Assembly: GCA_017654855.1 (NCBI GenBank)
Contig: CM030333.1
Coordinates: 434,001 to 498,000 of the forward strand
Direction of reading: 5' to 3'
Origin: Podospora anserina
Lineage: Eukaryota
DNA length: 64,000 bases
Of the stretch, positions 1 to 50,100 are shown piece after piece. A program made the position numbers and the translations under genes. The first letter of the stretch is position 1; every line of letters starts with the position of its first letter. Below the pieces are notes generated by a model. That model was given only the letters and a program-made list of their open reading frames with translations. It made no database searches and had not been told where the DNA came from.

Positions 1-6
1 AAGCCA

Positions 7-1863
7 ATGAACGTGAGCATCAACGGCGACATCATCAAACTGCCCAACAAGTACTCTTTGGATGTTACCCCTGTTGACATCCAAGAGCCAGACGCTGCTT
101 GCTTTATGAACAGGGAACACGGCGAGATCCTGGCCACTCTCAAGCTCCTCAAGCCCAAGGCCCGCTTACGCCGTATGAAGTCCGAGCTTCACGAAGAGAG
201 CGTTCTGAAAGATCTGGATGACTTCTTGTCCCAACAGAGTGGGAAGCCTCCAAAGGTCGTCGCGGCAAGCAAGGAAGCTCAACGCCAAAACCGTAGGTCA
301 TCGGGGCATTGGAGCAGCCATGACTCTGGAATCTCAACCAGTTCTGAAACCTCTGGCCTTCAGAAAGAGATGCCTTTAGGGGCACATCACCGAACACCTG
401 CGGAAGGTCACCGCTTTCAGACACTACTCAGCCGCCTACACTTGACCACGGAGACAAGAGAAGCTTCCCAGCCGCCGACAGCACCTGATCATGCTGAGAC
501 GTCGAAGAGCCATGCTCAGGTGGTGGATCCTGCAATTATCGCCGCAAAGGTCAAAGACGAAGAGCGCGAGGAGACGCCCGACAACTCGGAAAGGGGCGCG
601 CGCGAAGGTACCTTTTTCGGAAGGGATTCTACCTTGCTGTTTGGGAAGGGTAAATGGGCGCAAAAATCACACGATTCTGGCTATTCAACATTCCATTTCA
701 TGAAGCAGGGCACACAAGAACCAACAAGGCCCAAGGCGGTCGAGCATTTTGGTCCTACGGTTCAGAAGCGCAAAGAAGATTCAACATCATGTTCAACCAC
801 CTCAACCAAGTTGAATCCCACAGCTGCCGAATTCAAGTCGGTCACCAAAGGTGACCTCAAGTCAGGGGTGAAGAGCGATTTCAAGCCCGCGCCTGCAGCT
901 TATCCTGCCCCTCCCTGGACTCCAAAAAGACGGACACGGCCTTTACTCAACAATATCTTTCCTGGTGTACTGGAAGATCCCGGTTTCATGGCCCAGACAG
1001 TGCCATTTGTGGCAAACGATTGTCTTCAAGGTAGTCCATGGCAGACAAGTGGTCCTCCAACAGGGCCAGTGTGGGTGGCTGAACCGGGACAGCCTATCCC
1101 AGAGATGGCCTTCCAACCACCAGTAGCACCAATAGCAATGGCACCTCTTCCCATTGTTGATCCAGTTACGCAGCAGTTGGTCCCACCACCCTTCGCTCCT
1201 CCGCCCAGCAACTTTGGAACCTTCCCGCCTTCCGGAATCGCTCCTATTGCCAGCCAGATGCCAGGTCCCAACCCCGTATTTAGCACGCTTCCTCCATTGC
1301 GGCCTCCCCCAGCCCCCAGACCAAGATTTTCTCAGCCTATCCCGATTCCTCCTGGGCAAAGAGCCCCTATGCCCGCCGTGCCGAATGCAACTAGCTTCCA
1401 AGCACCTACTCTATACGGTCCAACTCTTGTTGCCGGTCCACCGCCTCCTTTGGCCTAGGATGGCAAGGGACCACGACCGGTATTTCCCGTCACCCAGAAA
1501 CCACGAGACCATGACCCTGTGAAGCAGCAGGCATATGAATCGTATCTGGAGTGGCGAAAGGCCAATGAGCCTGGCTATCACATGAAGTGCAAAATGCGTC
1601 AAGCACACCGTGTGGTTCGTCAATACCAGCAACAGGCGCAGACTGCTGACTGGAAGACCGTAGCTGGGCAGGCCAAAGCAGCAGCTGGAGCGTTGGAAGC
1701 ACATGCAGCCGAGGAAAAGAGGAGGTCAAAAGAAGCAGCTCTCAAGGAGCAATTCAAAATGAGTGTGAAGAGGGTAGCAGAGTCCTCTGGAGCCACGGAG
1801 ATAAAGGAACAAACACTTCCGGACACGAATAATGAAAAGCAAACACAAACATTGGTCATATAA
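7..1863 (+). CDS. Hypothetical Pro/Ser-rich protein with an in-frame TAG at 1456-1458; the 5' end may lie upstream of the window
   Basis: ORF 7-1458 and ORF 1519-1863 are in the same frame, separated only by TAG (GCC TAG GAT GGC AAG...). The downstream part has a protein-like motif, QKPRDHDPVKQQAYESYLEWRKANEPGYHMKCKMRQ. The frame is open from base 1. Confidence 0.75.
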
Positions 1864-2392
1864 AGCACACGATGACGAAAAGAGGGATATGCCCGTTTGC
1901 TCCGGAATACGATTCTTGTCATTTCGAAAGCTCGCTCGCTCAGGACAATTCTTTTCAACAGTTAGCAACCTTCGTTTCCGTTCCCCATCTTATTATATTG
2001 ACTTCGATCATCTCAGCTCAGCAAACAGACATAGCTACGATCCTTCTTTTTCAGCATGAACCCGGTGTTCTATAGACAAGGAATGAGTTATTTTACCGTT
2101 TGCTTTGGAGAATCAGAGGTAGCTTTACCGGGGGAGCTTCAGGAAATCATGTTATCCATTGAATGGTTATGGACTTTATGTCCTGATGGCGCAATTTGCT
2201 TTTTCTTTTTCGTTTCGGTTTGACTTATCCAGCTACATCAGCAGAGGAATCAAACATGGATAGTACGTGACTCGGGAGGTTGGCTAGGTATTCCGCTTGA
2301 CCGAGAGTTATACAGCACAACAGAGTTTAATATTGGTAGTTTGGTTGTGCCAGCAGTGGTGATTATGTGACGGGTGTAACACGATGACCTTG

Positions 2393-3944
2393 TCATTCGC
2401 CATCAGCCGGACCCGAGAAATAAGCCCCCTCCCAGCCACCACAGTCTTCCAATTTGGCTCCTTGTCTCGCTCTGTTGATCCTCTCTTCCGTGATCTTGAA
2501 TTCCTCGGGAAGTCTTGCATGTCCTTGTCCTGATTCTGGCAAACCCAGCATCTGGGCCGCCACAGCTCTGGCAGAGAGAGCAGCAGATGGCATGCCATGC
2601 CCGGTGTACCCAGCACACACCCATATTCCCCTGTGGGAGGGAACCTCTCCCACCCAGGCATTAGAGTCACGAGAGTAACCCATCACGCCCGTCCACTCGT
2701 ATGTTGCGGGTAACTCTTCGTCTTTTCCACCCAAGTCCAGCGGAGGAGAGAGGTTCGACCTCAGATAGTGAGCCACTTTCAGCTCGAGCTCATCATCGTT
2801 GTATTGTCCCAGTCCGAGCCGCAGTGCCAACCGACGACCTCCACCGTAGATCATCTCGCCTCCTGAGTCGGGGGTCAACACTGGTCTCTGAACGAGATAG
2901 TCGTCTCTCGGTGCGTGTTGGCCCTTCTCGGGGTCGGCGGCGAAGAGGTAGGAGTGGGTGAGGGTTTGGACTGGGGATGGGGGGACGATGGCGCTTATCT
3001 GGCCGCGGACGGGGACGATGAGGTCGGAGAAGGAGGGGAGGAGGTGGGAGGTGTACCCGTTTGTTGCTAGGAGGACTTTTGGGGTGGTGAGGGTGCCGCG
3101 GGGGGTGAGGATTTGGTGTTTACCGGGGGAGGAGGGGGAGGGGGAGAGGGAGAGGACGGGGGTGTTGGTTTGGAGGTTGAAGTTTGGGTTGGGGAGGAGG
3201 GAGGTGAGGATGTGGGCGATTAGTTTGTAGGGCCAGAGGGAGGCGGCGGTTTTTTGGATGATGGCGCCGTGGCAGTTGGGGGCTCTGAGGCGGGCTAGTT
3301 TGGATGGGTTGGTTGGGAGGATTACTTCTAGCTGGGAGGCGAGAAAGGGGTGGGTTTTGGTGAGGGAGTCGATTTGAGCAACAGCAGTTTGGAAGAGGGG
3401 GGTTGACATGAAGGCGTGGACGCCGCCGGAGAGGGTTATCCTGTGGTGATGGGGTTAGTTTGGGGGGAAATATTGGTAAGAGATATGAGAAGGGATATAC
3501 CAGTCACAGTCGATGTTTTCATCCCTTACTAATCTTTCAAGAAAAGAAAAGGTTTCCAACTCAAAAGCAGCAACGGCTGGGTGGGTGCCATAGACGAGAG
3601 GCTGGCAGTGGCCTCCATTCTGATGGAACTGTTAGAATTATCATGTAAAACTCATCAGATAAGTCAGTCCAGGCACACACCCTTCCTGTGGCACCACCAC
3701 AGGCCTCCCTCGCCTCGAGCATCACAACCTTCTTGTTACAGGAATAATCCTGCAGAAGAGACCTCGCGGCAAAGGCACCGGTTATACCACTCCCGATAAT
3801 CACAATGTCTGCTTCCTCTGGCAGATCTGGTGTTGATCGATGTCCCAAAAGCAGGGTATTCGGTTCACGAAGCCAGTAAGAAGAGGTCGGGTTGGCAGAG
3901 GGAAGGCCTGCCTGGTTCGTTCTGGGGCCGGTGTCGGAGGCCAT
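2393..3944 (-). CDS. FAD-dependent oxidoreductase (DAO-like family), 3 exons: 3944-3681, 3619-3501, 3440-2393
   Basis: N-terminal IVIIGSGITG dinucleotide-binding motif, EAREACGGATGR|NGGHCQP across intron 1, LLATNGY, and C-terminal WTGVMGYSRD and AGYTGHGMP. Both introns are GT-AG with a CTAAC branch site and keep the frame. Confidence 0.92.
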
Positions 3945-25321: not shown

Positions 25322-28055
25322 ATGATTGTGTCCGAAAACCTGCGTACGGCGTCGCTGTACATCAACAACCAGCTACTGTCTAGAGGCCTGCTGCGCGATG
25401 GCCAGAACATCGACTTTACCAACCCGGGGGAGAGCGAGGAGGAGATGGGCGAGACCATGAGCCGGATCATGTCGGTGGTGAATGACTTGATTTTGCGCCG
25501 CGATGTCAGTTTTTATACCCAATTCCCGCCACTTCTCCAAGACATCGGCGTACTGACAGAAACCAACACAGCGCGATGCAGAGCACCGTGAATCTCTCTC
25601 CGCTACTCTCCGCACGCTGCGCGCCGAGTCCCTCCGACAAGCCAACGACATCCAGCGCCTGCAAGAAAAGAACGCAGAGGCCCAGCGCAAAGCCGGCCTG
25701 AGCGACGCTGCCGAAACTGCTCTGAGAGCGCACATCAAGACGGCCGAGGCGACGATTCACCGCCTCAAAGAAGAGGCTGCGAGGACGAAGTTGCTGGCCG
25801 CCCAAACACGATCTGCCTGCGCCACAGAGGTCCGCAAGAGGGACCGCCAGATTGAAGGGCTGAAAAAGGCGGTATCAGAAGCGGCTAGAGCGAGAGGCGC
25901 TAGCAAGAGCCCAGGTGTCACCTCCATCACAGTGGTTGGCGATATCGGCGCCGATGAACAGGGCAACCCATTGCCTCCCACGCCCACGACGACGGCCAGT
26001 AGCAGTGATGGGTATGATCTCCGTCAGGAAACAAACTCGTTTCTCGCTGAATTGGCCAAGGGGCTGAGCGAAGAGAATGAGGGGCTTCTGACTCTAATCA
26101 GGAGGACGACGGAACAGTTGAAGGACATGAGCGGCTGGGACGCTGGAATGGTGGACAGTGACGGGTATGCTCTGTCGTTGCCCACCGGTTACGATGACAT
26201 GGCCGCTGAGATTGAGGCTGTCCTTGAACATCTGAGGACGATCCTTACCAACCCATCGTTTGTGCCGATTGAGGAAGTGGTGGTGAGAGAAGATGAGATC
26301 AACAGGCTGCGCGACGGGTGGGAGAAGATGGAGACGCGATGGAAAGAGGCGGTCCATCTCATTGATGGCTGGCGGAGGAGAATGCAGGCCAGTGGGCGGC
26401 CCGTTAATGTGGAGGAGCTCAAGATGGGCCTGCGCCTTAGTCCGGTCAAGGTTCAAAACGTGGAAGAGACGGCTCAAGGTGGGCTAGGACTGCAATTGGA
26501 ATCTGTCCATGAGGGCCATGAGAGTTATCATCATGATCAAGTTGACTACCAGGACGAGGACGAGGGTCCTTTGGAGTTGGTGCCTGAGGGTGGCATAGAG
26601 GAACAGGACGACAGCGATACTTCGAGTGTCTTTGAAGACCAGCAGATTGATATGGACGAGTTGGATGTTGAGGAGCCTAACGTTGAGATCCTTCAGCAGT
26701 CGGTCGTGATGCCCTCGCCTCCCGTCGCTCCGGCCCCCCAGCCCAGCCCGTTGCGCGAACATTTTTCGGCCGGAAACAAGGGTGGAAGAGACGGCCCCAA
26801 TTTGAGGAGACGTCCAAAGTTTGCCGAGGAAGGCGTCCGGAGCCGACCCCTTTCTGAAGAATCGCCGTTACCACCTCCCCATGCCGACAGACCCCAGCAA
26901 TCACCATCCAAGAAGCCGCTATTATCAGTACGGACCGTGCCTTCTGAGGAAACTGGCACGGCTGCGCAACCGCCTTCCGCGGCCGTCTCTACACCTGATA
27001 CATCTATCTCTCTGGACAGCGTCTCGTTGCCCAAGGCCGCCGCGGCGGAACCGAAGAGTGCAGTCACGAAAAAGTCAGCGCCAACGCCCCCACCGCATGC
27101 GACAAGACCAATCAAGAAGCCATCCCCTGCCCCGAGACCAGTAAAGGAAACACGAAAACCTCCATCTCGGCAACAAGAGCGGGAAGAGAGGAAAACTAGT
27201 ACTACCAGCACCACCACTACCCGGCAGCAGCAACAGGAAAGCGAAGCCAGGCAGAAAAAGGTCACTTCCCGGCCCCCCGTAACACGTCCCACCAGACCAC
27301 CCATCACCCGTGGACGCTCAGAGACCCGCAAAGGGGACAGCGATACCTCCAAGCCCTCCAAGCCAACCGCCCGCAACACCTCCGCTACCTCGACCACCTC
27401 TACCCGATCCGCGCCAGTCTCATCGAGCTCCAAGACCTCTATCCCGCCCAACCCAGAACCAGCGCCCGGAAAATCCCCTCGCCGCGTGAACTCTCGCCTT
27501 CCCCTCCCACGTAACGCTGGCAGCAGCGGAAGTAATAATTCCGCCTGCGCAGCTGGTACCGCTACTAATAACGCCCCGGTATTGCAACCCCCTCAGTCTC
27601 CAACACAAGCCCAGCAATCCCCTCTTTCCATGGCGACCATTCAAGCCAAGCTTGCCGCTTCGGAACGCGATGCTGATGCGGCCCGCGTGAGAGCCAAACT
27701 CAAGGCAGCAAGGAAGGGCATCCACCTCCCAGGTCCCGGCTCAGGTCGGGTTACAGCCGAGAATAGCATGCCCAACACACCTACCGAAACAATGTCGACC
27801 AAGAGTATGAGATCGGAGCAGAGCGACTACATTCAGTATCAGCCTGAGCAGTATGACGATGGTGAGGATGAGCTCGGCTTCTCGGCTGTCCAGCCTCATC
27901 AGGTCATCCATGCAGAGAAGCCACGCAAACGGGAGAGGAATTATGGAGAAGCTGTGGCGGCACGGAAGACAAGCGACAAGGTGGCAAGCCGGAGACGGAG
28001 TACTTTGAATCCATGGGAGCTGGAGACCTTGATAAAGGGTGGAAATGCCGAGTAG
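25322..28055 (+). CDS. Afadin/alpha-actinin-binding (ADIP) coiled-coil protein, TinA-like (NIMA-interacting, spindle pole body), 2 exons: 25322-25504, 25572-28055
   Basis: N-terminus ENLRTASLYINNQLLSRGLLRDG, a coiled coil, LTNPSFVPIEEVVVREDEINRLRDGWEKME, a low-complexity tail and C-terminal RRRSTLNPWELETL. Intron GTCAGT...ACTGAC...CAG. Confidence 0.85.
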
Positions 28056-46100: not shown

Positions 46101-48759
46101 TACATGACCTCCCATCGCTTACCTTGCTGCTATCGGTGACGGCTACACAGCGACGATATTTTGAGTGGTGCTGGCAGCCAGTCGACACTCATTGACGTGT
46201 CTTCCTACTGTTTCAGGTCGAGTTGGGAAGCAGTAAGAACAAGGTTCTGCACCCAGTCAAAGGGGGTTGATGGAGAGTAGCGTTCGCTGGTCCCCGTTTT
46301 GTGAAGATAATCCTTGCATGTCCGTGGAATCAATATGGAAAGGGCGCTCTCCATCGTGGTTGGCTCCAGCAGCAAGGTCGTGATTCACAACCAGCCTGGG
46401 CCTGCTATGGTTGCATTTGGCTCGCCACATTCCCTCTTTCGTCTGTTGGCCCCCACCCCTTCACACCACCTAAATTGTGGCTGGCTTCCACACCAGATTG
46501 TCGTCATCGAAGATTCTTCGGGCACAGCAGCCTTGCCAAACCTTTAGACGCCAAGGGGCATCATGGGCACAGGTTTATTGAAGAAGCTGCACCTAGGGCA
46601 GGATCGATCACATTCGCATTACAGTATCTCACAGACCCTGACCACGCGTCCTCGTTGTTGATCCGGGGATATTGGTGTGAGCAGATCCAGCGGCTCAATC
46701 TCAAAGGCTATCTTGCAGCTTGCGTTAGCTCCAGAAAATCCGATCAGTCCGAATCCATAATTCAAGGGTAGTCAGTTATCGTGACTTCTTCGGCCTCGAC
46801 TCGGCCTATTGACACAGCGAGCTTTGACGATTCACCGTCTTTTCTCAGTTGGTCACTCATTGCTTTAAGATGCCCTATGACATCACACCCAGATCCAGGG
46901 CACGAATGCCCGAGGTCGATGCTGACGGCGTCTACAGACTTGCATAAGGTAGGTAGGTAACATCGACACGGCTCTTATCAAAAAGCATTGAGAGCCTGCC
47001 GCTGTGCGCGCTGCTGCTACCAGCTGTCGACGTTGAGGCCTCTGATGGGACGACGGGAAAGTATCTTCACGCCCGATCATCTTCGGCACCCTCTCTGCAC
47101 ATCACGGCCATGTAGTCCCTGGCATGCACCGTAGGCCAGGACCATGAGATACACAAGAGGAAATATCGCGAGTCGATCCAGATCGTCGGGAGTCCCAGCT
47201 GCTGCATGGTTTGTTTGATACTGGGCCGCTTGCGGCACGGGGACCGATGCGACTTGTCTCCGGCCGAGAAGCAGGACGAACTACTGCCGGCAAAACGGGA
47301 CCGGTGGCAGACACACACCACCGGTCATGATATTTGGGTTAAGAAAGGGAAGTTGATCGACAATGATAGGTCCTGATCTAGGTACCGGATCGTGCGAGAT
47401 GCTGGAAACCAGCTTGCCGATCCGTGTCGAGTCCAACGAAGATGGTGTTGTGAACGAACCTTAAAGGTATGCGTCTACATGACCACACACTTATGTGGTT
47501 GCCAAATCACCCCTGACTTCCCCCGCAAACAAGATTTTACTCTCTCAGTATGCAGCTGCTGAAGGCCAGTAGAGGAAAGGAACTGAGCTTGGTAGCAGCG
47601 GCAGCGTTCAGCTACCACAGAGTCCAGGAACCTGGATTGCAACCCTCCCCAACACCACAAAAAGGTTCGAAAAAGCGCTTCAATCATGACGACTTGAGCA
47701 CATAACGACGGAAATCCCTTTTGTTTCCTGCCCTACCTGAAACCGGTGCTATTACTTCACAATCGCGAACCATCTAAAGAAGGCAGCATCGTGCGTCTGA
47801 GCTCGGGGCTCGGGGTTCTTCGCTGGAAGCAGCATGTGGTATTCCACCACCACCACTTTAGAGGAAAAAGAAACAGTGAAACCGAGGAACCAAAGTCTAA
47901 TTTACCTAGCATCTTCCCAGGATGAATAATCCTAGATCAGTCGGCGGCCAGTCTGGTCGTTGAAGATAGCGACAATTCCACAAACGGAGGAGGCATTAAA
48001 ATACAGCTAACCGTGAAGACCAAATTCTCTTTCTACTACAAAAACCTCCAGACCCAGAAAAGAACCCGGAGTTTAGCGCCCCTTTACATGCACACCGTGA
48101 TCGTTTTCTGTCAAATTCCCCTTCTCCCCCAACACCCCAACCAACCAGAAATGTTCCAGACATCCAGCCACCGCCTACCTACCTTACTCACACATGTGTA
48201 GTGTTACTCTACCAGAGCTGAAACCGCTTTCCTTCTCTCTTCCAAACGCAGAATGTCGTCATATTACAACTTCACTTTACTAGCTAAAGCCCGAAACAAG
48301 AATCGCAATTCATTCAAGCTTTTTTTTCTCTCCTTCGTTCTTCTCCAGACAATACTACTGGCAGTGTAGTACCATCATCATCAGGTATCATTCATGCCAC
48401 TTGACAGGTGACCAAATAGTCTGCTGTCATGATACCTTGCCACCACCACTTGACCAATAAATTTGACATCTGCAACATGGCATGAGAATGACAGCCTGCC
48501 ATCCATTGCAGCTTTTCTCGAAAAGAGTTAAAGATCGACATAAAAAACGTTGTAGGTAACACCCTGCGATGCCACACGATAGCCACGATGGAAAATAACT
48601 TCCCTGGTTTTTGATCTTTTTACCCCTGTTGAACTGCATACAGTGAGCGACGATCACTAAGCCCCCTCATTCAGATAAAGAAAAGATAGAGTGCTGAGTT
48701 TTGACACTGTCGATCACAACGGGGGCACGTATCCTATAAGTAGGCTCATCACTTTGTTG

Positions 48760-50100
48760 CTTTACTAGCTACTTGTACTCTATACCGCTTTGTTATTAAC
48801 ACCTTATACATATAAAATAATCTAACTACCTAGTTTTTATCTATTTCTTTTTTTAGTTTATTTTCTTCTAAATCTAACTTTATTTAGATAAGTATTTTAT
48901 AAACCCTTTTTACTATTTATAGTACTTTTACTGTAAATAACGCTACATAGTATTATAGTAGTAATCTACTATAGAATAAGCCTCACGGTGACTTATTCTA
49001 ATAAATAGTATTAAAGATCTGACTTTTAGAATTTATTAGATATATTACTTTTTTATTTAAAGTGTAAAAATCTATATTATAAAAATTAAACATATTCTTG
49101 ATATTAAAAATTTAGTTCCATATACAGGCTTAAAGGCCCTGTAATGGTAGCGCGCTTTAGTGCTTATGGTGCAGCGGAAACTTGCGACACGGTATCTGTA
49201 GCTCACTTTAAGATGTGCGTAAGCTCTAGCGCCTTACAGCGCTGTATGATAGAGTGATAGTAGATGACCTTCTGTATTTACAGCGCTAGCCTTCTGTAAT
49301 ACCACTATTTTACTCTGTAGTAGGATTCGCACTCGTCTTCTACTATATACTTCCCGGGGGCCTTATAGGGCCTTGCACCCCCAACACGCAAATGTGTTAA
49401 AGTTTGCCCTAGAACTCAAATATTTGGCTGCGTTTTGCCAAAAATGTGCTCACGCCCATACAAAACAACGCAAAATCAGTCACCGGCTTACCGTAAGTGC
49501 GGGTAGTTATGGGCTCACAAGGCCACTATTTCTACAGAGCACTTATAGAGCCTTTAGTAGCCTAAATCCAAAATTTAGGCCATTTTAGGCCACTATAGCC
49601 TCCGATGCAAGGCTTCGAAGTTGACTTTGTACTAAGTGGATCCTCGAGGGTGGCGGGTAGGTATGTTGAGGCTATTTTCGCCGTATCCACCAGTTCTTCG
49701 GAACTAAACGCCTTGTAGTATTACAGCAGTAACCTACTGTAAAATAAGCCTTACAGGGACCCATTTTTAACAGTTAGAATTAATTTTAATAAGCGAATAA
49801 AAGCTATAAGTAAAAAAGTAGTAAAAACTATATTTTTAAAGCTAAAGTACAAGTATTAAAAAATAGATAATATAATTAATTAAAAAGAATTAAGATAAAT
49901 TTCAACGATAAATTTATTATTATCATTAATATTATTAAAGTGAAAGCTAAACTTAATAACGGTTTTGATAGCTTATAGAAATATATAGATCTTTAGCTTT
50001 AAATAGTATTAAAGAGCTTTACTTAATTTAATATAGAAAAGTAGATTTCTATAATACAAATATATAAGTATTATTAGTCTTACACGAAAATATAGATCTC
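48760..50100. mobile_element. AT-rich, RIP-like degenerate repeat island
   Basis: Abrupt switch to very AT-rich, TpA-rich sequence (about 48780-49130 and 49760-50100) with no credible ORFs, typical of repeat-induced point mutation. Boundaries are approximate. Confidence 0.75.
49140..49755. mobile_element. Putative solo LTR nested within the AT-rich island
   Basis: A 616-bp, less AT-rich segment bounded by TGTAA...TTACA (extendable to CCCTGTAA/TTACAGGG), close to the composition shifts. The flanking 5-mers GGCCC/GGGAC are not a clean target-site duplication. Confidence 0.5.

What the first reader, a model, noticed from the sequence alone, without database searches (positions are those of the whole stretch)
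1441..1863. In-frame TAG splits an otherwise intact gene: candidate A-to-I premature-stop-restoration target
Seen: ORF 7-1458 ends at ...TTG GCC TAG GAT GGC AAG GGA CCA CGA..., and the same frame continues for 134 more codons to TAA at 1861-1863. That extension contains the most domain-like part of the protein (PRPVFPVTQKPRDHDPVKQQAYESYLEWRKANEPGYHMKCKMRQAHR). There is no canonical donor or CTRAC branch site around the TAG. Known: Sordariomycetes (Fusarium, Neurospora, Sordaria) edit UAG to UIG (read as Trp) specifically in fruiting bodies, restoring 'pseudogenes' such as Fusarium PUK1. Inference: the full-length protein is made only in the sexual stage, so the stop acts as a stage-specific switch.
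Basis: partly seen in the sequence, partly recalled or inferred. Interest (0 to 1): 0.78.

Follow-up and report, generated by a model that had tools for sequence, protein, structure and literature searches.

The report
Edited stop codon in a Podospora gene
A fungal gene carries a built-in stop codon just before its most conserved part, and public transcript assemblies show that stop rewritten to a tryptophan codon, a known fungal RNA-editing trick that database gene models hide behind a false intron.

Summary
TAG at 1456-1458 interrupts one long frame, and 134 sense codons follow to TAA 1861-1863. The gene is cut by the window edge: the full protein has 782 residues.

- One laid assembly (X1, RNA by guess) covers 233-2332 in a single contig with no splice. 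Its only difference is A>G at 1457.
- A 782-aa protein with W at the stop matches the window at 620 of 620 residues. It occurs on 4 short public contigs. The stop-terminated form sits on 18 contigs of up to 82 kb.
- None of the four laid runs shows a splice that removes the TAG.
- Nine public gene models skip 1165-1458 as a 294-nt intron. That segment evolves as coding sequence (78% identical to Triangularia setosa, only in-frame indels).
- The part after the stop is the best conserved part of the family.
- Relatives outside the Podospora clade have one uninterrupted ORF.

Stage specificity was not testable. The best reading is a premature-stop-correcting A-to-I editing site, a new member of a known kind.

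The parts
1..1455 (+). Coding sequence upstream of the stop: codons 163-647 of a 782-codon single-exon gene whose 5' end lies outside the window. Mostly disordered and Pro-rich.
   Evidence: No Pfam family.
811..834 (+). Motif L-N-P-T-A-A-E-F. L, N, P, A and F are invariant across 26 aligned family members. It resembles the PABP-binding PAM2 motif, which is recalled and not tested.
   Evidence: invariant L433 N434 P435 A437 F440. (LNPRAREF / LNPKAKEF in distant members). No Pfam or PDB sequence hit.
1165..1458 (+). A 294-nt segment (97 sense codons plus TAG) that public gene models remove as an in-frame GT..AG intron. It is read here as coding sequence and not as an intron.
   Evidence: model P0169 equals P0175 minus these 98 codons. 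(76 of 97 residues identical to T. setosa, two one-codon indels). (unspliced in every contig that reaches either boundary). (relatives are intronless here).
1456..1458 (+). In-frame TAG. The A at 1457 is read as G in one laid assembly. Context CTAGGA.
   Evidence: Motif comparison with TTAGGA from PMC13431901.
1446..1470 (+). Possible hairpin that places UAGGAU (1456-1461) in a 6-nt loop. The support is weak.
   Evidence: 61-nt fold, z -1.86, 9 of 200 shuffles fold at least as well. The 41-nt and 101-nt folds pair A1457 instead.
1459..1863 (+). 134 codons downstream of the stop plus the TAA terminator. Predicted as a short helix followed by one long helix.
   Evidence: mean pLDDT 81.3; helices at residues 20-36 and 40-109 of this part.
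1483..1620 (+). Core of the family's most conserved domain (FPVTQKPRDHDP..YESYLEWRKANEPGYH..CKMRQAHR). It is made only if the stop is passed.
   Evidence: 29 of the 34 invariant columns lie in residues 657-699..
1864..2332 (+). Probable 3' untranslated region of the plus-strand mRNA (inference from one contig's extent).
   Evidence: the X1 contig runs unbroken to 2332 and does not splice 2070-2128.
2070..2128 (-). 59-nt GT..AG intron of a minus-strand transcript that converges on this gene and overlaps its 3' end. It probably belongs to the neighbouring DAO-family oxidoreductase gene.
   Evidence: table 5 (joint 2069|2129, ends CT..AC, seen in X2, X3 and X4 but not X1). (Pfam DAO on 2393-3409 and 3561-3944, minus strand).

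Best explanation
This is a single-exon, 782-codon gene of a fungus in the Podospora anserina species complex (Sordariales). It encodes an uncharacterised, largely disordered protein with two conserved elements: an LNPxAxEF motif and a C-terminal helical basic domain. The genome carries TAG at codon 648, in a variable linker nine codons before that domain. Translation of the unedited mRNA stops there and gives a 647-residue protein without the domain. In some RNA samples the A of the UAG is deaminated to inosine and read as G, so UAG becomes UGG (Trp) and the full 782-residue protein is made. This is the premature-stop-correcting (PSC) form of fungal A-to-I mRNA editing. Shown here: the TAG; its presence in several genotypes and in at least one other genus; the G form in transcript-like assemblies; the absence of a spliced form in four runs; and coding-type conservation on both sides of the stop. 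Inferred: that the G arises by RNA editing and not from a DNA allele; that the TAD2/TAD3-type deaminase described in Fusarium and Neurospora does it; and that it is restricted to the sexual stage. The 294-nt intron in the public gene models is an annotation device to avoid the stop, as happened with Fusarium PUK1.
For: (1): in X1 one 2101-nt contig (depth 185.9) covers 233-2332 with no joint and no indel, and its only other letter is A>G at 1457. X1's assembly looks like a transcriptome and not a genome: 10.5 million letters in total, longest record 4325. (2): P0175 (782 aa, Logan assemblies only, 4 contigs, longest 5301 nt) has W at the stop, and its last 620 residues equal the window's TAG=W translation with 0 mismatches. 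The stop-terminated ORFs P0174 and P0176-P0178 lie on 18 contigs of up to 82 kb. (3): no contig in 4 of 4 runs joins 1164|1459 or 1377|1459. X1, X3 (1393-1598) and X4 (1373-2069) run straight across the putative acceptor, and X1 and X2 (1011-1251) run across the putative donor. (4): in Cercophora samala, Apiosordaria backusii and Triangularia verruculosa, whose models skip the segment, the part after the stop is 80-88% identical to the window against 62-74% for the N-part. The first 62 residues after the stop are 60-62 of 62 identical. (5): the 97-codon 'intron' is 76 of 97 identical to T. setosa, has two one-codon indels, and stops at the same place. T. setosa's downstream ORF is annotated as a separate adjacent gene. 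(6): of 156 stored homologues carrying the YLEWRK-type motif, only 4 representatives (P0002-P0005) show the IVDP|DGKG jump. In 12 of 16 metagenome loci the whole upstream ORF (611-787 codons) runs uninterrupted into the domain. The other 4 loci are cut by the contig end and are open as far as they go. (7) Context CTAGGA matches 5 of 6 positions of the preferred motif TTAGGA, with U at -1 (passages of PMC13431901). (8) Precedent: the PUK1 intron was annotated only to avoid stops that are in fact edited (passages of PMC7306014).
Against: X1 is labelled RNA only by guess, and no DNA run of the same strain was laid, so a genomic TGG allele is not formally excluded. The tool itself warns that strains and alleles look like editing. 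X3 (depth 4.1) and X4 (depth 54.9) keep A at 1457. That fits stage-specific editing, but it also fits absence of editing. X4's contig also carries a minus-strand splice, so its A may come from the antisense transcript. Contigs drop rare variants, so low-level splicing of 1165-1458 cannot be excluded. The hairpin-loop preference of fungal editing is not clearly met: the A is in a loop in one of three folds, with z-scores from -0.8 to -1.9. The stop codon in the other species was seen only through protein models, so I do not know that it is TAG there. I found no published editing catalogue for Podospora.
Confidence: 0.78

Rival explanations
1. The G at 1457 is a genomic TGG allele that segregates in some strains. 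The contigs carrying it come from such strains, and no RNA editing occurs.
For: No matched DNA control was laid, and X1's RNA label is a guess. Close strains of one species can differ at a single base in 2 kb.
Against: The sole difference in 2100 bases falls exactly on the middle A of the stop and is A>G. The W form occurs only on 4 contigs of 5.3 kb or less, while stop forms lie on 18 contigs of up to 82 kb and in all 6 NCBI models of the 90% cluster. The stop is shared with sibling genotypes and with T. setosa, so a revertant would have to be recent and rare.
Confidence: 0.07
2. Segment 1165-1458 is a genuine in-frame intron or exitron. Splicing uses the AG of the TAG as acceptor and produces the 684-residue protein of the public models.
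For: GT..AG boundaries and a length of 294, a multiple of 3. The same junction appears in 9 public models: P0002, P0169-P0173 and P0003-P0005.
Against: No joint was seen in 4 of 4 laid runs, and contigs cross both boundaries unspliced. The segment is conserved as protein with only in-frame indels. Relatives have no intron here. The donor GTTACG is weak and 294 nt is long for this order (recalled). Gene predictors routinely splice out in-frame stops, as in the PUK1 case.
Confidence: 0.06
3. The stop is final. The gene is a truncated form or decaying pseudogene, and the downstream frame is not translated.
For: The unedited A form is present in X3 and X4.
Against: The downstream 134 codons are better conserved than the upstream part across four genera, with 60-62 of 62 residues identical right after the stop. 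The G form exists.
Confidence: 0.04
4. Ribosomes read through the UAG (programmed translational readthrough) without any change in the RNA.
For: This would also explain conservation of the downstream frame.
Against: It does not explain a G at 1457 in assembled sequence. UAG-GAU is not a readthrough context I know of (recalled).
Confidence: 0.03

Closest known systems
Fusarium graminearum PUK1 (first fungal PSC editing target)
   Same: There is an in-frame UAG in an otherwise intact gene. The annotators placed an intron over the stop. The transcript is unspliced and UAG becomes UGG, giving a protein with its conserved C-terminal part (passages of PMC7306014).
   Different: PUK1 has two adjacent stops inside a kinase domain. 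Here a single stop lies in a variable linker before a domain of unknown function. Sexual-stage specificity is shown for PUK1 and not here.
The 71 'PSC pseudogenes' of F. graminearum with restorative editing (Qi et al. 2024, PMC10776026, passages read)
   Same: This is a hypothetical protein rich in disordered sequence, as are 71% of that set. Orthologues elsewhere are intact, and the stop is retained across related species. [quoted passage not shown]
   Different: The fungus belongs to another order (Sordariales, Podospora clade). I have no evidence that this gene is orthologous to any of the 71, because their list is in supplements I did not read. The requirement for editing and the phenotype are untested.
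Stop-loss editing of normal terminators (for example DBF2 in F. graminearum, PMC13123824, abstract seen in the listing)
   Same: UAG to UGG extends the protein, and two protein forms arise from one gene.
   Different: Stop-loss editing runs into former 3' UTR. Here the extension is the ancestral, most conserved domain of the family.
Neurospora Sk-2 rfk-1 (early UAG edited so that translation reaches a late UAA; bioRxiv 10.1101/2020.12.30.424869, abstract seen in the listing)
   Same: The host is a Sordariales fungus, and the gene has an early UAG and a late UAA with editing choosing between the short and long products.
   Different: rfk-1 is a spore-killer gene on a drive element. This is a conserved housekeeping-type family found across Sordariomycetes.
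Exitrons (in-frame, protein-coding retained introns)
   Same: GT..AG boundaries, a length divisible by three, and coding conservation.
   Different: The defining spliced isoform was not seen in any of the four laid runs.

Membership tests
Fungal premature-stop-correcting (PSC) A-to-I mRNA editing site | In-frame genomic UAG (or UGA/UAA) whose A is preceded by U | tested here: met
   C-T-A-G at 1455-1458. 96.7% of edited A in N. crassa follow T (PMC13431901 passage).
Fungal premature-stop-correcting (PSC) A-to-I mRNA editing site | RNA reads G where the same strain's DNA reads A | tested here: inconclusive
   G at 1457 in the X1 contig and a W form on 4 short Logan contigs. However, X1 is RNA by guess and no matched DNA was laid.
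Fungal premature-stop-correcting (PSC) A-to-I mRNA editing site | The stop is not removed by splicing | tested here: met
   No joint over the TAG in 4 of 4 runs, and contigs cross both putative boundaries. Limit: contigs drop rare forms.
Fungal premature-stop-correcting (PSC) A-to-I mRNA editing site | Orthologues without the stop are intact, and sequence downstream of the stop is under purifying selection | tested here: met
   (uninterrupted ORFs in relatives). (downstream 80-88% identical against upstream 62-74%). The test was at protein level only; dN/dS was not computed because no relatives' DNA was available.
Fungal premature-stop-correcting (PSC) A-to-I mRNA editing site | Preferred flanking motif and hairpin-loop position | tested here: inconclusive
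   The motif CTAGGA matches 5 of 6 positions of TTAGGA. The loop placement holds in 1 of 3 folds and the z-scores are weak.
Fungal premature-stop-correcting (PSC) A-to-I mRNA editing site | Editing specific to sexual development (perithecia) | not testable with these tools
   Runs are coded and their tissues are unknown. G appears in X1 and A in X3 and X4.
Fungal premature-stop-correcting (PSC) A-to-I mRNA editing site | Dependence on the TAD2/TAD3 deaminase with sexual-stage cofactors | not testable with these tools
   No genome is held for this window. ADAT genes are reported as differentially expressed during P. anserina sexual development (bioRxiv 10.1101/2024.12.09.627484 passage).
Exitron / in-frame retained intron | A spliced isoform exists alongside the retained one | tested here: not met
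   No 1164|1459 joint in 4 runs. Absence in contigs is not proof.
PAM2-motif (PABP MLLE-binding) proteins | LNPxAxEFxP-type motif that binds the MLLE domain | tested here: inconclusive
   LNPTAAEFKS with invariant L, N, P, A and F. The consensus is recalled, and the last position is S and not P. No Pfam hit at E <= 10 and no PDB sequence hit. Binding was not tested.

The most novel reading that the evidence does not exclude
The editable stop is not a mere on/off patch on a broken gene. It is a two-isoform switch kept since the common ancestor of Podospora, Triangularia, Apiosordaria and Cercophora samala. The 647-residue form keeps the invariant PAM2-like LNPxAxEF motif and acts in vegetative cells, for instance by occupying poly(A)-binding protein without the effector domain. 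Editing adds the family's conserved C-terminal helical domain during sexual development. The stop arose from a non-Trp codon in a variable linker. A second, independent interruption about ten codons upstream may exist in Cladorrhinum, which would mark this linker as a recurrent site for such switches.
Probability: 0.2. Interest if true: 0.65.

Novelty: new member of a known kind. Interest (0 to 1): 0.47.

Why it matters
This case corrects the public annotation of the gene in at least ten genomes. Nine models carry a false 294-nt intron that deletes 97 residues, and one genome has the gene split into two models. It also gives direct sequence-level evidence for stop-correcting A-to-I editing in the Podospora clade, for which my searches found no editing catalogue. 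The stop is shared across several genera, it did not come from an ancestral Trp codon, and it sits just before the family's most conserved domain. P. anserina is genetically tractable, so TGG and TAA allele swaps could test whether such stops are adaptive stage switches or merely tolerated damage. That question is under current debate (PMC10776026 versus PMC13431901).

Tried and rejected
- **Whole genome:** none is held for this window, so the editing machinery and other sites could not be examined.
- **Run search:** no RNA holder is listed in the look-up of sequencing runs. All 'RNA?' labels are guesses.
- **Uncovered stretches:** I drew no inference from X2 at 1404-1488 or X1 at 123-232. I did not use depth to rank expression.
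- **Function searches that found nothing:**
  - Pfam on both halves and on the full 782-aa protein, 0 families even at E <= 10.
  - ESM Atlas on residues 640-782, no usable hit.
  - Foldseek against PDB with the C-terminal model, 0 matches at E <= 0.001.
  - PDB sequence search with the motif region, 0 hits.
  - PDB sequence search with the C-domain profile, best E 0.63, dismissed.
- **Earlier findings of this scan:** none by place or by sequence.
- **Gene-identifier search:** a paper search for a guessed identifier returned only Pseudomonas PA2400 papers.
- **Scripts replaced:** the first motif regex was too strict and one search replaced it. The 20-sequence MAFFT alignment misplaced the skipped segment, and the pairwise alignments replaced it.
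- **RNA folds:** they give competing structures and are not used as support.
no joint was seen, and X1, X3 and X4 run through it.
- **Other readings:** selenocysteine- or pyrrolysine-type recoding and translational readthrough are unnecessary once a G form is seen.
- **TAG at 28053:** the 142 open codons after it look like a G/T-rich 3' UTR with no Pfam hit, and I did not pursue them.

Full report
**1. The observation**

Searches confirm TAG at 1456-1458 within ...TTG GCC TAG GAT GGC AAG.... The same frame then continues for 134 sense codons to TAA at 1861-1863. The frame is already open at window base 1, so the gene is cut by the window edge and ATG 7 is not its start.

The continuation is unlikely to be chance. 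Only 67 of 4290 stop-to-stop intervals in the six frames of this window reach 134 codons. The continuation is also homologous to a conserved domain.

**2. What the gene is**

The read-through translation (P0001) was searched in two ways.
- The word-indexed search found 78 proteins at E <= 0.001.
- The exhaustive representative search found 128 at E <= 0.001, 57 at <= 1e-10 and 25 at <= 1e-30.

All named hits are hypothetical proteins of Sordariales: Podospora, Triangularia, Cercophora, Apiosordaria, Cladorrhinum, Chaetomium, Thermothelomyces, Lasiosphaeria and others. More distant members come from Phialemonium and Cladobotryum.

The closest cluster contains a P. pseudoanserina protein at 97-98% identity. 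The window therefore comes from the Podospora anserina species complex.

No Pfam family matches either half or the whole protein. In a 26-member alignment the invariant columns fall in two places:
- an L-N-P-x-A-x-E-F motif at residues 433-440 (window 811-834);
- a block at residues 657-699 (FPVT.KPR..DP.KQQ.YE.YLE.RK..EPG.H..R..A.R).

Twenty-nine of the 34 invariant columns lie in the second block, which is downstream of the stop at codon 648. AlphaFold models this part as a short helix followed by one long helix (mean pLDDT 81.3). Fold and sequence searches against PDB gave nothing, and the ESM Atlas gave nothing.

**3. How public annotation treats the stop**

Six 684-aa NCBI models in the 90% cluster (P0002, P0169-P0173) jump from '...MAPLPIVDP' directly to 'DGKG.RPVFPVTQKPRDHD'. 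So do the models of Cercophora samala, Apiosordaria backusii and Triangularia verruculosa.

In window coordinates this is a 294-nt in-frame intron, 1165 (GTTACG) to 1458 (CCTAG). The AG of the TAG serves as the acceptor. P0169 equals the 782-aa form minus exactly these 98 codons.

Triangularia setosa is annotated differently. One model ends at '...GPPPPLA'. The next accession on the same contig starts at the first Met of the downstream frame.

**4. Is the segment an intron?**

The evidence says no.
- Between the window and T. setosa the 97 codons are 76 of 97 identical, with two single-codon indels and a stop at the same place. The N-terminal part is 73% identical.
- In P. australis the same motif (PNAT.FQAPTLYGP) is read as protein joined directly to the C-terminal domain.
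- Of 156 stored homologues carrying the YLEWRK-type motif, only P0002-P0005 show the jump.
- Sixteen metagenome loci were fetched with the family alignment. Twelve hold a complete upstream ORF of 611-787 codons that runs uninterrupted into the domain. The other four are cut by contig ends and are open as far as they go.

The ancestral gene is therefore one exon, and the Pro-rich segment is coding.

**5. Is the downstream part translated in stop-bearing species?**

In the three genera whose models skip the segment, the 134 residues after the stop are 80-88% identical to the window. The N-part is 62-74% identical. The first 62 residues after the stop are 60-62 of 62 identical.

The sibling genotypes differ at 0-2 of 134 residues downstream, against 10-17 of 550 upstream. 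A non-translated tail would not behave like this.

One caveat applies. I saw the stop in these species only through protein models, and I had no DNA for dN/dS.

**6. Direct evidence at the RNA level**

The look-up of sequencing runs listed coded runs of one organism. Four runs from four studies were laid on 1-2400. All are Logan contigs labelled RNA by guess.

| Run | Coverage near the stop | Base at 1457 |
|---|---|---|
| X1 | one 2101-nt contig, 233-2332, depth 185.9, no joint, no indel | G (its only difference) |
| X2 | pieces inside the putative intron (1011-1251, 1253-1403) | not covered |
| X3 | 1393-1598, depth 4.1 | A |
| X4 | 1373-2069, depth 54.9 | A |

X1's whole assembly is 10.5 million letters with a longest record of 4325. 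That fits a transcriptome and not a 36-Mb genome sequenced at that depth.

The protein collection gives independent support. It holds P0175 (782 aa, Logan assemblies only, 4 contigs, longest 5301 nt), which has W at codon 648. Its last 620 residues equal the window's TAG=W translation with 0 mismatches. The stop-terminated ORFs (four distinct sequences) lie on 14+2+1+1 contigs of up to 82 kb.

The G form is thus confined to short, transcript-like contigs, and the A form occurs in long genomic contigs.

**7. Context of the site**

The hexamer around the site is CTAGGA. Passages of PMC13431901 give TTAGGA as the preferred six-site motif and state that 96.7% of edited A in N. crassa follow T.

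Folding is ambiguous. A 61-nt fold puts UAGGAU in a 6-nt loop (z -1.86; 9 of 200 shuffles fold at least as well). The 41-nt and 101-nt folds pair the A. I do not count the structure as support.

**8. Origin of the stop**

The aligned codon was counted without gaps as the ninth before the F of FPVT. In the 16 loci it is GCC, GCG, GCA, CCC, CCG, ACC, CTG, CGC or GAT, and never TGG or TAG. Named outgroups have A, P or S at that position.

The linker is variable, so a Trp there is likely to be harmless. The edit restores function and does not restore an ancestral residue. Qi et al. describe this as frequent (PMC10776026 passages).

**9. Comparison with what is known**

This matches premature-stop-correcting A-to-I editing as defined for Fusarium PUK1, where an intron had been annotated only to avoid edited stops (PMC7306014 passages). 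It also matches the 71 'PSC pseudogenes' of F. graminearum, 71% of which have disordered regions.

For Podospora I found no editing catalogue. Two full-text searches returned only papers that mention editing in passing. One of them reports differential expression of ADAT genes during P. anserina sexual development.

The finding is therefore a new member of a known kind.

**10. What remains open**

- Stage specificity is untested because the runs are coded.
- The RNA nature of X1 is a guess.
- No matched DNA control was laid.
- The identity of the stop codon in other genera is unknown.
- The truncated 647-residue protein may or may not have a function of its own.
- X4's A-form contig also carries a minus-strand splice (2070-2128), so it may derive from an antisense transcript of the convergent DAO-family gene.

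**Verdict**

| Reading | Probability |
|---|---|
| Editing | 0.78 |
| Strain allele | 0.07 |
| True intron or exitron | 0.06 |
| Dead truncation | 0.04 |
| Translational readthrough | 0.03 |

Noticed in passing
window 811-834 (+): An L-N-P-T-A-A-E-F motif is invariant in the family (L, N, P, A and F in 26 of 26 aligned members). Distant members carry LNPRAREF or LNPKAKEFRP. It resembles the PAM2 motif that binds poly(A)-binding protein; the consensus is recalled from memory and binding is untested.
   Followed up: partly
window 1373-2400, intron 2070-2128 (-): A minus-strand transcript with a 59-nt GT..AG intron converges on the gene and overlaps its 3' end, reaching at least 1373 in the X4 contig. 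It probably comes from the neighbouring DAO-family FAD oxidoreductase gene (ORFs 2393-3409 and 3561-3944, minus strand). The splice is seen in X2, X3 and X4 and not in X1.
   Followed up: partly
P0081 (591 aa, Logan contig 5170 nt) and P0091 (129 aa, Cladorrhinum sp. PSN259): In Cladorrhinum-like relatives the family also appears split. One ORF ends '...EAPTLYGPA', about ten codons upstream of the Podospora stop position. A separate model starts at 'MYESYLEWRK'. This could be an independent interruption in the same linker. No DNA was available to check, and the two proteins may come from different species.
   Followed up: no
window 28053-28055 (+): An 832-codon ORF with a Pfam ADIP domain near its start ends at TAG (context GAG TAG TTG), and 142 open codons follow in frame. 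The extension is G/T-rich, has no Pfam hit and looks like 3' UTR. It is a possible stop-loss editing candidate or chance.
   Followed up: partly
window 123-232 (+): X1's otherwise continuous, deep coverage of the gene breaks between two contigs here (1-122 and 233-2332). The tool warns that holes prove nothing. Mixed variants at this spot are one possibility.
   Followed up: no
window 48001-50000: GC content drops to 0.374, against 0.48-0.58 in the rest of the window. This may be an AT-rich, RIP-like or repeat region.
   Followed up: no
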